Below are positions 23,480 through 32,689 of a stretch of 64,000 bases of DNA, piece after piece. How positions within the stretch are numbered: position 1 is the first letter of the stretch; every line of letters starts with the position of its first letter. The DNA is taken from assembly GCA_965153355.1 (NCBI GenBank), contig OZ231126.1, positions 7,130,001 through 7,194,000 of the forward strand, given 5' to 3'. The notes beneath the pieces are model-generated. The model was not told the DNA's origin, ran no database searches, and saw only the letters and a program-made list of their open reading frames with translations. The translations under genes were made by a program, and so were the position numbers. The DNA comes from Flaccisagitta enflata (Eukaryota).

Positions 23480-23571
23480 ATGGTGGGATTCCACACTTGC
23501 GGTCCCAATGAGGCCCTGGTTGTCACCGGCTGCTGTTATCCTGCCGCACTACCCAATGTCGTCATTGGAGG
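23480..23571 (+). CDS. FLOT1: Flotillin-like exon 1
   Basis: ATG at 23480, FHTCGPNEALVVTGCC motif, GG|gtaagt donor (phase 2). Confidence 0.9.
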
Positions 23572-26500
23572 GTAAGTGTAGAATCATCATCGATAGTGCT
23601 GTTAATCCGTTGCTTTTCCCAATTGTCATTGGAGATTAAGTGAAGAGTCATAACAGCATTTAAGATCGACGGATGCTGTTATCCTGCCAGCCGCTGCACT
23701 ACAAAATATCGTCATTAGAGGGTTGGTAAAGAGATGCATTAAGATTGAAGATTCTTGGGGTTGGAAATTTAGAATGCGCATGACTTGATGCTGTTATCCT
23801 GCCAGACTACCCAACATTGTTATTAGAGGGTAAGTGAAGAGTCATGACAGAGTTTGGGATCATTGGAGGCTATTATCCCACTGCGCTACCCAACATTGTC
23901 ATTGGAGGGTAAATGAAGAGTCATGACAGCGTTTAAGTTCGCTGCTGGATGCTATTATCCTGCCGCATTACTCGATGTCGTCATTGGAGGGGTAGTGAAG
24001 AGATGCATTAAGACGGAAGATTCTTTGGGGTTGCGAATGAAGAAGAAGGAGAAAATTTTATGGCTTGTACTTACTAATCTCTGGAAAGTGTCACAAATTG
24101 TCACATTCAGAATTCAACCGTTTCTTGTTTCAGTTGGACATTTGTGTGGCCGGGAATTCAACAAGTTCAAAGTCTTCCACTCGGAATCATGTGCATCGAT
24201 TTGTTTACGGAACAAGGAATGACAAAACATGGAGTCGCGGTCACTGTTAAAGGTGTTGAATGAATGAATGAGTGAATGAATGAATGAATGAATGAATGAA
24301 TGAATGAATGAATGAATGAATGAATGAATGAATGAATGACTCAATGAATGAATGAATGAATGAATGAATGAATGAATGAATGAATGAATGAATGAATGAA
24401 TGAGTAAACGAATTACTCTCGGAATCATGCGCAAGAAATTACGAAACTTGAAAATGGCCGTAATTGTCAAAGATGAGACGTAGTAGAGCCAATAGGCATA
24501 AATGAGAAAATGAATGAATGATTGATTTATTGACTGAATGAATGAATGAATTTCGAGAATGAGAACGCGGTGCCGTCATTTCTTGCAGGGTTTACATCAT
24601 GTACACCCATCCCTAGATAACCTTCTAAAGAAAATCAAAATACCCATTTTTTCTGACTATGTGTTTTCACTCAAGTAACATGTGGGCTACTCAAAAAAAT
24701 AAAAAACAAAAAAATTCGCTTGAAAATTTTAGATTTTTTGCCATTTTTAGGCAAAAAAACACCATATTTTGTTTTTTTTTTCTCTCTAAATCCGTAGAAA
24801 ATGTTAGTTATGCCCCTGTGAGCCATGGAATTGATAGGCATAGGTGAAACACAATAGCTTGTATGCAAAGCAACTAGTTTGAAGCATTTTTGATTCGTCA
24901 TTAGCTAGAAAGTCCCAATAAAGTCACAAAAATAACTATTTTTTTGCATTTTATTACTTTTAACTTTAAAAAAACTTTAAAAATGCTATCAATTTTTGTG
25001 AAAATATCAAAGAGCCCTCTTGACAAGGTTTCATTTTCATTAGTTCCAGTAAATAGAGCTCATATCCTATACAAAAATAGAAAAAAAACTTAATGCAAAG
25101 TTGTTTTTTATCTGATCTTGCTATGAAAAAGCAGTGGGGTCTTTTCTGCTCTTTTCAAGCTGATTTTGGAGCAGTTACTTGATCAAAAACTCATTGCACA
25201 TGCTGTTATGCTAACCCTGGATTCTATTTTACCCATTCTATGACTTACAAGAGCATTTTTAAAAGTTTTCTCAAGATTAGAAGTAAAAAAATGTTTTTTT
25301 TTTCTTTTTTAGGTGACTTTTTAACTAATAACAAACCAAAAATGCTTCAAACTAGTTGCTTTGCATACCAGCTAGTGTGTTTCACCTATGCCCACCAATC
25401 CCATGTCTCACAGTGGCACAACTAACATTTTCTATTGGTTAAAAGTAAAAAATATCCTAAAAATGCAAAAAAATAGTTTTTTTTTGCTTTTTTTTATGAT
25501 TTTTAAGATGTTAATGAACCAAAAAATGCATCAAACTAGTCACAATGCATGTCAGCTAGTGTGTTTCATCTATGCCTACCAATTCCATGGCTCACAGGGG
25601 TATAACTAACATTTTCTACTGATTTAAAGAGAAAAAAATGCAAAAAATAGTGTTTTTTTGCCTAAAAATGGCAAAAAATCCAAAAATTTCAAGCGGATTT
25701 TTTTGTTTTTTATTTTTTCGAGTAGCCCACATGTTACTTGAGTGAAAACACATAGTCAGAAAAAATGGGTATTTCGGTTTTCTTGAGGTAGCAGGGGGAC
25801 TGCGGAGCCCCAAAGAGGTAAATAAGAGAGATACACCACCCAGTAGGCGACCAATGTCTGGTGGAACATCCCTCTCAACAATCTGAAACGTCAGATGGAC
25901 TTAAAAATGTTGAAAAAATCGCCCTCATCCAGCATCTTTCTCATCTATGTGAATTATCGAAATTCCCATTAAAATTACTGCATTTTTAGGGCTTTTCGCC
26001 ACATAAAGTTTTAATTCCTGATCACTTTCAACAATACCAAGTGTTTTTTATGTGATTGCTGATATGGAATGAAACAGGTGATTGATTAATAAAACAAAAC
26101 TCAAAATTGCTGCAAGTTGCTGCAAGTTACAGCATGTTGCTGCAGGCAACATGGTAATTTAAGCCAAACAAGGGTGGATACACGGCCACCCAAGTCATGT
26201 GCGGGAGGGCAGGGGCCGTAATTGAAGTCACTTGATCATTTGGGCAGGAGCAGTGAGGCCAGAGACCGCAAAAAACAAAAAAAGTAAATGGTGACAGACC
26301 AACAAGTGGACCAACAGACGGACCTACGGACCAACAAAGCGGGGTGTAGTCGCGTAGCACGTGACAAAAAATGTTGCAAATCTGAGAACACATTGATAGG
26401 CAATTGAGTCTTTAGTTTTAAACCAGCAACTCTATCAGGAGCTTTGCCCAACAACGCTGAAAAAGCTAATGGTATCAGACCAGCCAGCAGACCAACCAAC

Positions 26501-32500: not shown

Positions 32501-32689
32501 GGCGACCACCGGGACGACGAGGGCGTGGCTGCGGCCTCGGTCGAAGCTCCGGCCTCGGGCTTGGGGCCGGCTTCTGTCGAAGCTCCGGCCGTTGTCATCC
32601 CGGCTGCCCCGACAGTCGTCGTTACGAAAGACGATTCAGGAAATGAAGCCGACAAAGTCGACGATGTCTCTCAACTACCGGAAGAATGA
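23480..32689 (+). CDS. FLOT1: Flotillin-1-like SPFH/Band 7 protein, six exons: join(23480-23571,24134-24252,29616-29765,30236-30359,30829-30897,31969-32689), 424 aa
   Basis: The translation MVGFHTCGPNEALVVTGCC...GGWTFVWPGIQQVQ...TKHGVAVTVKGVANIKV...QLFLGKSEEEI...TLEALQRSTIAQLTVEELISDKEK...LGLALVSYQVKDVKD follows flotillin-1 motif by motif. All five introns are GT-AG with matching phases, and the 1275 nt total ends in TGA. It is probably a divergent paralogue rather than the orthologue. Confidence 0.85.
24134..24252 (+). CDS. FLOT1: Flotillin-like exon 2
   Basis: tttcttgtttcag| acceptor; WTFVWPGIQQVQSLPLGIMCIDLFTEQGMTKHGVAVTVKG; AAAG|gtgttg donor (phase 1). Confidence 0.88.
25839..29187. mobile_element. 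Non-autonomous DNA transposon with CCCAGTAGGCGACCAA termini (CMC/EnSpm-like ends)
   Basis: Perfect 16-bp terminal inverted match followed by about 100 bp of imperfect inverted similarity; internal gcagcttgctgcaa repeats; no clean TSD. Confidence 0.65.
26905..27310 (+). mobile_element. Family C Helentron/DINE-like element with 21-bp core
   Basis: Same 5' repeat, ctcaggcctcaaa core and gggcaacgggtatc..ttgcccttgggcgacctgtt end as the 12732 cluster. Confidence 0.7.
29337..29560. repeat. (CAA)n/(CGA)n microsatellite just upstream of flotillin-like exon 3
   Basis: Read directly. Confidence 0.95.
29616..29765 (+). CDS. FLOT1: Flotillin-like exon 3
   Basis: ttcag| acceptor; VANIKVYSSAKETLTLATQLFLGKSEEEISSRVKDTLEALQRSTIAQLT; ACAG|gtgatg donor; 150 nt, phase 1-1. 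Confidence 0.9.
29796..30185. repeat. (GTT)n microsatellite filling flotillin-like intron 3
   Basis: Read directly. Confidence 0.95.
30236..30359 (+). CDS. FLOT1: Flotillin-like exon 4
   Basis: ctctgctctcag| acceptor; VEELISDKEKLQTTAHEIMAEELIKLGLALVSYQVKDVKDC; AG|gtaatc donor. Confidence 0.9.
30472..30665 (-). mobile_element. Family A Helentron/DINE-like copy in intron 4
   Basis: aacaaggccggatacacagctaccctagtcgcg end and GACC/GACG core. Confidence 0.7.
30829..30897 (+). CDS. Flotillin-like exon 5 (non-flotillin linker LQVYCNLTSALKKSPLKNTIAF)
   Basis: T-rich tract plus tgcag| acceptor, 69 nt open, phase 2-2, AG|gtaagc donor; no recognisable homology. Confidence 0.65.
   Translation, partial: TPGLLQFNVGAQKISLEKHHRL
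30900..31830. repeat. 18-bp minisatellite (gagctgagcatggcattt) with a higher-order spacer unit
   Basis: Runs of 18-mers punctuated about six times by gcaaagtgagcatggctggcgtagtaactgtgagtgcatact. Confidence 0.9.
31969..32689 (+). CDS. Flotillin-like exon 6: E/K-rich, Thr/Ala-rich acidic low-complexity tail
   Basis: ttttacag| acceptor in phase 2, 721 nt open with GC-rich mixed codons, stop TGA at 32687-32689. Confidence 0.75.

What the first reader, a model, noticed from the sequence alone, without database searches (positions are those of the whole stretch)
23480..32689. Flotillin-derived protein that keeps the SPFH domain but has swapped the coiled-coil for a disordered acidic tail
Seen: exons 1-4 encode about 160 aa that track flotillin-1 to the end of the SPFH domain (..VSYQVKDVKD). 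Exons 5-6 then encode about 260 aa of unrelated E/K-, T- and A-rich low-complexity sequence, with an intact frame and stop. Known: canonical flotillins continue into an EA-rich coiled-coil needed for FLOT1/FLOT2 oligomerisation. Inference: this is a lineage-specific paralogue that can still bind membrane (N-terminal Cys residues and the hydrophobic stretch are retained) but cannot build the normal assembly, so it may be a membrane-tethered disordered scaffold or a modulator of the canonical complex.
Basis: partly seen in the sequence, partly recalled or inferred. Interest (0 to 1): 0.72.

Follow-up and report, generated by a model that had tools for sequence, protein, structure and literature searches.

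The report
Flotillin that lost its cage wall
This animal has a seventh, spliced and conserved flotillin gene that keeps the membrane-binding foot but lacks the long helices that build the normal flotillin cage, so it likely holds a floppy acidic tail at the membrane instead of forming a cage.

Summary
The gene is real. Six coding exons give a 424-aa frame. A database protein (P0003) is spliced across all five coding junctions plus a leader intron and is identical over aa 1-202. Band_7/SPFH is present (aa 1-160); the wall helix and cap are absent, and no such exons were found on this chromosome. The genome also holds six full-length flotillins (four FLOT1-type, two FLOT2-type).

Corrections: aa 161-192 is not acidic low-complexity sequence but a basic linker (pI 10), identical over 30 of 30 residues in a diverged relative (P0014) whose SPFH exon is only 29 of 39 identical. 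The proven FLOT1 palmitoylation site (C34) is Gly here; C7, C18 and C19 remain. Two annotated limpet proteins also have a flotillin SPFH domain with a short charged tail, so the plan is rare but not unique; shared origin is unresolved.

Best reading: a membrane-anchored SPFH foot carrying a regulated basic linker and a disordered acidic tail. Membrane binding and function are inferred. No transcript record covers aa 226-424 and no reads were laid. New variant of a known kind.

The parts
23223..23302 (+). 5' leader exon (its 5' end is not known); holds an upstream ATG whose frame stops before the main ATG in this allele
   Evidence: P0003's N-terminal extension equals this exon joined to 23428 across a 125-nt GT-AG intron
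23428..23571 (+). Exon 1; ATG at 23480; aa 1-30, SPFH1 with C7, C18, C19
24134..24252 (+). Exon 2; aa 31-70; aromatic rim W32, F34, W36; Gly38 at the place of human FLOT1 C34
29616..29765 (+). Exon 3; aa 71-120, SPFH2
   Evidence: PDB flotillin-1 E 6e-6; relatives P0004 42/49 and P0154 40/49 identical
30236..30359 (+). Exon 4; aa 121-161, end of SPFH2
   Evidence: Band_7; P0003 and P0014 fix the donor at 30359
30829..30897 (+). Exon 5; 69 nt, phase 2-2; aa 162-184, core of the basic conserved linker (C167, Y166, SPLK motif)
   Evidence: spliced in P0003 and P0014; single copy in the genome
31969..32689 (+). Exon 6; aa 185-424 and TGA; end of linker, then E/K-, T-, A/P- and D/E-rich acidic tail predicted disordered
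   Evidence: open frame and codon bias; only aa 185-225 covered by P0003; single-sequence model of aa 216-424 is coil
33813..33818 (+). First AATAAA after the stop; candidate poly(A) signal, untested

Best explanation
A single-copy, spliced and conserved flotillin paralogue, likely derived from FLOT1, keeps the SPFH1+SPFH2 foot but has no wall helix or cap, so it likely acts as a membrane-anchored carrier of a basic linker and a predicted-disordered acidic tail rather than as a cage subunit. Shown: gene structure, splicing to aa 225, SPFH homology, absence of wall and cap, conservation of aa 161-190 in a relative. Inferred step 1: SPFH1 dips into the cytosolic leaflet through W32/F34/W36 and acylated C18/C19, as in the solved flotillin cage. 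Inferred step 2: the linker (net +6, two Cys, an amphipathic stretch at aa 165-175, S176-P-L-K and R-K-A-S188 kinase-type motifs) is the working part, binding acidic lipid or one partner and being switched off by phosphorylation. Inferred step 3: the 230-aa acidic tail is a length-tolerant spacer or brush that keeps neighbours apart and would also hinder packing into a cage. In plan this works like GAP-43/MARCKS/BASP1 (lipid anchor, basic effector segment, acidic unstructured body), built on an SPFH foot.
For: P0003 is intron-free across six junctions and identical over aa 1-202, while its leader differs at 3 of 44 codons plus an indel (Fisher p 0.005) and its E/K stretch at 3 residues plus an indel. 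P0014 keeps aa 161-190 at 30/30 against 29/39 in exon 4 (p 0.004, comparison chosen after seeing the alignment). P0004 and P0154 carry exon 3 at 42/49 and 40/49 and leave the alignment at the same donor; own-genome paralogues reach only 18-23/49. The model of P0003 has pLDDT 85-98 in the ten-residue blocks across the SPFH domains, and its top four PDB matches are flotillin-cage chains (E 4e-19 to 1e-16). After aa 160 the longest Pro/Gly-free run is 25 residues against 97 in the two paralogues tested. Whole-protein pI 4.52, linker 10.0, tail 4.2. SPFH1 mediates membrane binding and the C-terminal regions stabilise the cage (PMC13000311 sections 7 and 9; bioRxiv 2024.05.09.593390 section 7).
Against: No localisation, acylation or binding data. 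aa 226-424 rest on genome signals only. The SPFH domain is fast-evolving: it keeps 39 of 67 near-invariant FLOT1 columns and has an end branch of 1.1-1.9 changes per column. The FLOT1 C34 site is lost. The kinase motifs are short, recalled consensus patterns that can arise by chance. The linker's conservation rests on one relative, which could be a chimeric assembly. Acidic low-complexity coding also occurs in a neighbouring frame of this window, so the tail's make-up is not special to this gene.
Confidence: 0.5

Rival explanations
1. It is a natural cage breaker or gate: it docks on FLOT2 (or FLOT1) through SPFH1/SPFH2 and hinge contacts, but having no wall it ends or opens the ring.
For: SPFH1 loops, SPFH2 charge patches and the hinge Tyr core make inter-subunit contacts in the cage, and ruptured cages are seen (PMC13000311 sections 7-9). 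The linker is modelled as helix continuing from SPFH2, and V165/Y166/L169 could fill the hinge core. Six full-length partners exist in the genome.
Against: The linker shows no significant likeness to the start of the wall helix in any of 9 proteins tested (39 to 110 of 300 shuffles score as high). The hinge Tyr cannot be placed. Pro177 breaks the helix. The modelled helix has pLDDT 58-71 and leans on an alignment of canonical flotillins. The helix around the canonical EGHQRAIM segment is altered. Known dominant-negative constructs in the passages read are C-terminal fragments or unacylated mutants, not SPFH-only pieces (PMC7177705).
Confidence: 0.2
2. It works like the isolated stomatin SPFH domain: a small homo-oligomer that binds and tunes a membrane protein such as a channel; the tail is secondary.
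For: The stomatin SPFH domain alone dimerises and represses ASIC3 (PMC3433786, abstract). Replacements at invariant columns are shared with the relatives P0004 (8 of 9) and P0014 (9 of 13), which suggests a new, fixed surface.
Against: No dimer evidence here; it does not explain why the linker is more conserved than SPFH2. Partly compatible with the best explanation.
Confidence: 0.12
3. The gene model's end is wrong: the main transcript leaves exon 6 early or another isoform reaches canonical wall exons.
For: P0003 ends at aa 225; P0014 ends after its E/K stretch in unrelated residues. No read-level data. One paralogue (C3) spans about 280 kb, so far-off exons are possible.
Against: A full-length FLOT1 query finds only exons 2 and 3 of this gene on contig C1 among 41 matches of 78 scored candidates. 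tblastn over the rest of the window and 20 kb beyond gives only low-complexity matches. Distal exon 6 has codon bias and stays open in 9 of 20000 shuffles. The best of 22 internal GT sites scores 4 against 4-8 for the real donors on my rough scale.
Confidence: 0.1
4. It is a truncated duplicate drifting towards loss; the tail is read-through into repeat-like DNA.
For: Long branch; 28 of 67 near-invariant columns changed; parts of exon 6 resemble simple repeats elsewhere in the genome; broken FLOT2 fragments exist on C5.
Against: No amino-acid change in 202 codons against a second allele whose leader does differ; three diverged relatives keep the frame and exon borders; the linker is invariant; fold confidently predicted.
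Confidence: 0.08

Closest known systems
Flotillin-1 (reggie-2) and the FLOT1/FLOT2 44-mer cage (PDB 9BQ2, 9L3G)
   Same: SPFH1+SPFH2 sequence and predicted fold; 71 identities to the own-genome C3 FLOT1 over aa 1-160; aromatic rim and N-terminal cysteines.
   Different: No 189-residue CC1 wall, no CC2, beta-barrel strand or CTD; C34 site is Gly; hinge Tyr unplaced; none of its four SPFH-region introns sits at a paralogue's intron position.
Limpet short flotillins: Lottia gigantea LOTGIDRAFT_172453 (P0045) and Patella caerulea SNE40_000916 (P0076)
   Same: Fast-evolving FLOT1-side SPFH domain, Band_7 without Flot, followed by a charged non-wall tail; they join the target at 86/90 and 86/93 in two trees.
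   Different: Tails are about 110 aa, net neutral, with their own C-terminal motifs; no clear likeness to the target's linker or tail; the grouping is of long branches and unstarred, and AU tests do not reject an origin from own-genome FLOT1 genes (p 0.23, 0.16).
GAP-43 / MARCKS / BASP1
   Same: Plan only: likely lipid anchor, basic segment, acidic body; pI 4.52 against 4.46-4.64 (PMC6478813, passages).
   Different: Has a folded SPFH domain; no IQ consensus (IQxxxRGxxxR) seen by eye in the linker; no homology claimed; calmodulin, PIP2 and actin binding untested.
Stomatin SPFH dimer
   Same: Precedent that an SPFH domain can act as a small oligomer (PMC3433786, abstract).
   Different: 16-19% identity in the fold search; stomatin has a membrane hairpin and its own wall and cap (recalled; cage in bioRxiv 2024.05.09.593390 passages).

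Membership tests
Flotillin (FLOT1/FLOT2 cage subunits) | N-terminal SPFH1+SPFH2 (Band_7) domain of flotillin type | tested here: met
   Pfam Band_7 E 2.2e-17; model and Foldseek top hits 9bq2/9l3g
Flotillin (FLOT1/FLOT2 cage subunits) | CC1 wall helix of about 189 residues | tested here: not met
   Profile of 24 FLOT1 stops at aa 160; 0 of 237 helix-prone Pro/Gly-free windows against 53 and 37 of 162; aa 216-424 modelled as coil
Flotillin (FLOT1/FLOT2 cage subunits) | CC2, beta-strand and CTD cap (Pfam Flot PF15975) | tested here: not met
   No Flot hit in exons 5-6 or P0003; the 3 genome hits for PF15975 lie on C5, C6, C7
Flotillin (FLOT1/FLOT2 cage subunits) | Aromatic SPFH1 rim with acylated Cys/Gly | tested here: inconclusive
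   F4, W32, F34, W36, C7, C18, C19 present; FLOT1 C34 place is Gly38; no Gly2; acylation itself cannot be tested
Flotillin (FLOT1/FLOT2 cage subunits) | Hinge Tyr160/163 and its hydrophobic core | tested here: inconclusive
   Alignment leaves a gap at Y160; Y166 lies two residues off register
Flotillin (FLOT1/FLOT2 cage subunits) | Assembly into the alternating 44-mer | not testable with these tools
FLOT1 subfamily (ancestry) | SPFH domain nests in the FLOT1 clade | tested here: inconclusive
   On the FLOT1 side at 92/93 and 86/90; AU test does not reject a place with FLOT2 (p 0.138)
Limpet short flotillins | Common origin with P0045/P0076 | tested here: inconclusive
   Unstarred long-branch join; shared replacements 8 of 20 and 6 of 13 lie within the range of 62 other divergent proteins (mean 4.3, maximum 11); limpet intron positions not available
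GAP-43/MARCKS/BASP1 | Acidic protein, pI about 4.5 | tested here: met
   pI 4.52
GAP-43/MARCKS/BASP1 | Unstructured over its whole length | tested here: not met
   aa 1-160 form a confidently predicted SPFH fold
GAP-43/MARCKS/BASP1 | Basic effector domain binding PIP2 and calmodulin under PKC control | not testable with these tools
   A basic linker exists (net +6, pI 10.0); binding untested

The most novel reading that the evidence does not exclude
Animals have an unrecognised third class of flotillin, wall-less and shared by this lineage and limpets, whose SPFH foot slots into FLOT1/FLOT2 rings and whose phospho-switched basic linker and acidic brush open or cap the sealed membrane cage: a built-in gate for flotillin microdomains.
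Probability: 0.12. Interest if true: 0.8.

Novelty: new variant of a known kind. Interest (0 to 1): 0.5.

Why it matters
Flotillins are described as two highly conserved proteins that depend on each other and form a closed 44-subunit cage. A natural, conserved paralogue with only the foot separates membrane anchoring from cage building. It offers a ready test of two open points: what the SPFH domain does alone, and how the sealed cage is opened. The invariant 30-residue linker points to the exact segment to mutate. The limpet proteins show that loss of the wall happened more than once or long ago.

Tried and rejected
Complex prediction with the genome's own FLOT2 was not available. dN/dS: no DNA for P0003, P0004, P0014 or P0154. 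Exon-4 donors at 30355 and 30360 rejected (frame breaks). Idea that exon 5 is a frameshifted or in-frame remnant of the wall start: no significant score against 9 proteins; the other frames are closed. Tail against wall regions: best 9 to 19 of 300 shuffles in 4 of 9 comparisons, read as composition, not homology. Single alpha-helix (E/K) idea for aa 196-260: 13 salt pairs against 11.5 +/- 2.5 in shuffles, rejected. Shared rare residues as proof of orthology with limpets: failed its control. ESM Atlas gave only generic Band_7 clusters for P0003 and P0045. Search with P0045 gave 21 other proteins, none a further short flotillin by length and annotation that I could confirm (the short ones were not inspected one by one). 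Earlier findings of the scan: nothing. The single-sequence fold of the tail is weak evidence, since low confidence is usual without an alignment.
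Full report
OBSERVATION. The exon-4 donor has to be the one at 30359; two nearby choices break the frame. Exon 5 is 69 nt with phase 2 on both sides, so skipping it would keep the frame.

EXPRESSION. A search with exon 3 returned P0003 (source label 'merc'; that this is a marine metatranscriptome protein catalogue is recalled, not from a call). P0003 runs without introns through exons 1-2-3-4-5 into exon 6 and is identical to the model over aa 1-202. Its N-terminal extension equals a leader exon (23223-23302) joined to 23428 across a 125-nt intron. 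A spliced non-coding junction makes a cDNA origin likely. It is a second allele or population: the leader differs at 3 of 44 codons plus an indel, the E/K stretch at 3 residues plus an indel, the first 202 residues not at all (Fisher p 0.005 for leader against coding). P0003 stops at aa 225. For aa 226-424 there are only genome signals: codon-position bias (p 1e-19 and 3e-9) and an open frame in 9 of 20000 shuffles. No reads were laid, so level, tissue and 3' end are open.

RELATIVES. Exons 2, 4 and 5 are single-copy in the genome, so three diverged records likely come from other species. P0014 is spliced exon 4-5-6: 29 of 39 identical in exon 4, 30 of 30 over aa 161-190, then its own E/K stretch. 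P0004 and P0154 carry exon 3 at 42/49 and 40/49 and run into unrelated sequence at the same donor. Own-genome paralogues reach 18-23 of 49 there. The new linker is thus more conserved than the end of SPFH2 (p 0.004; one relative, comparison chosen after the fact).

GENOME CONTEXT. My spliced alignments give six full-length flotillin models without stops or frameshifts: FLOT1-type on C3, C7 (two) and C9, FLOT2-type on C5 and C6. The first exon of the C7b model was not recovered properly, and the C3 model was built from three fetched pieces. A full-length FLOT1 query scored 78 candidates and gave 41 matches; on contig C1 only this gene's exons 2 and 3 appear. The remaining window and 20 kb beyond give only low-complexity matches. 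None of the four SPFH-region introns (reference positions 27.2, 67.1, 117.1, 158.2) is shared exactly with a paralogue; the nearest is 157.2 in the C6 FLOT2. The paralogues also differ much among themselves (3 to 14 introns), so this fits a retrocopy or plain intron turnover.

DOMAINS. Pfam finds Band_7 (E 2.2e-17) and no Flot domain. A profile of 24 canonical FLOT1 proteins (20 database proteins, 4 genome models) aligns aa 1-160 only; 39 of 67 near-invariant columns are kept. The AlphaFold2 model of P0003 (56 sequences) has pLDDT 85-98 over the SPFH blocks, then helices of 58-71 over the linker; its best PDB matches are the flotillin cage chains. After aa 160: a basic linker (aa 161-192, net +6, pI 10.0, C161, C167, hydrophobic moment up to 0.47 at aa 165-175), then E/K-, T-, A/P- and D/E-rich blocks (pI 4.2; 1 aromatic in aa 185-424). 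The longest Pro/Gly-free run is 25 against 97 in C3 and C7b; aa 216-424 fold as coil without an alignment (weak). The linker scores no better than shuffles against the start of the wall in 9 of 9 proteins.

WHAT IS KNOWN OF THE CAGE. In the human structure CC1 has 189 residues and forms the wall; CC2 and the CTD form the roof; SPFH1 enters the membrane with aromatic residues and palmitoylated C34 (FLOT1) or C4/C19/C20 and myristoylated G2 (FLOT2); hinge Y160/Y163 is needed for assembly (PMC13000311: abstract and sections 7, 8, 9 read; its Supplementary Fig. 7 on truncations was not seen). The wall is glued by charge pairs, not heptads (bioRxiv 2024.05.09.593390: passages and section 7). The target lacks wall and roof, has Gly at C34, and keeps a CC pair aligned with the FLOT2 pair. 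A FLOT1 fragment of aa 36-179 binds membranes (PMC7177705, passages), which makes anchoring by the foot plausible.

IS THE PLAN COMMON? Of 162 proteins in hand, 133 had 40 or more residues after SPFH; I listed the 40 with the least wall likeness and followed up a few. Many read like frameshifts or fragments. Two are named limpet proteins, P0045 (Lottia, 270 aa) and P0076 (Patella, 269 aa): Band_7, no Flot, a net-neutral tail of about 110 aa with motifs shared between them. In two SPFH trees the target joins them (86/90 among 37 rows, 86/93 among 22; unstarred, all long branches). AU tests do not reject target with C3 (p 0.23) or with C9+C7a (p 0.16). Without the limpets the nearest row is C3, on the FLOT1 side (86/90), but a place with FLOT2 is not rejected (p 0.138). 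Shared replacements with the limpets (8 of 20, 6 of 13) do not exceed those with 62 other divergent proteins (mean 4.3, maximum 11). So the plan is rare, not unique, and its origin is unresolved.

MECHANISM. Most likely (0.5) the SPFH foot anchors the protein, the conserved basic linker binds lipid or a partner under kinase control (the SPLK and RKAS motifs are recalled consensus patterns), and the acidic tail is a spacer. This resembles GAP-43, MARCKS and BASP1 in plan: acylation, a basic effector domain, pI 4.46-4.64 (PMC6478813, passages) against 4.52 here. It is not a member of that group. Rivals: cage breaker (0.2), stomatin-like small oligomer (0.12; PMC3433786, abstract), wrong 3' end (0.1), decaying duplicate (0.08).

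NOVELTY. It descends from flotillin but fails two defining tests of a cage subunit. Six literature searches on flotillins (listings and abstract openings only) showed no description of a natural animal flotillin without the wall; a review says flotillins exist as two conserved proteins (PMC11775717, passages). The 2006 survey of reggie-like proteins was not held and most subscription papers are outside the library, so absence from print is not shown. Verdict: new variant of a known kind, interest 0.5.

Noticed in passing
window 23655-24002: Intron 1 holds four decayed tandem copies (period about 79 bp) of the 3' end of exon 1 with its donor site; two keep a GTAA donor. P0003 uses the first, original donor.
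   Followed up: partly
window 23223-23479: The leader has an upstream ATG in frame with the main ATG; it meets a TGA in this allele but reads through in P0003, so a 46-aa N-terminal extension may be polymorphic. A partial copy of the leader exon lies at about 23150-23206.
   Followed up: partly
window 30351-30394: The exon-4 donor region is duplicated 22 nt downstream.
   Followed up: no
window 30920-31810: An 18-bp satellite with higher-order periods (106-178 bp) fills most of intron 5.
   Followed up: no
G000 C3, C5, C6, C7, C9 (L026-L041): The genome has four FLOT1-type and two FLOT2-type full-length genes, with 3 to 14 introns each; the C3 gene spans about 280 kb.
   Followed up: partly
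L031:2611-3053 and 5759-6019: Two broken FLOT2 fragments (stop, frame break) lie just upstream of the intact, intron-poor C5 FLOT2 gene.
   Followed up: no
window 56595-59981 (+): A 1128-codon open frame rich in E/K/G/S with no Pfam hit; a short segment near its residue 330 recalls GPATCH8/ZNF804-type proteins (recalled, untested).
   Followed up: partly
P0045, P0076: Limpet short flotillins share a C-terminal motif ending in YKGYDW, annotated only as hypothetical or Band 7 proteins; worth a look of their own.
   Followed up: partly
P0019, P0038: Divergent full-length flotillins with an acidic insert in place of part of the C-terminal region and no Flot hit for P0019; possibly an intermediate kind of tail change.
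   Followed up: no
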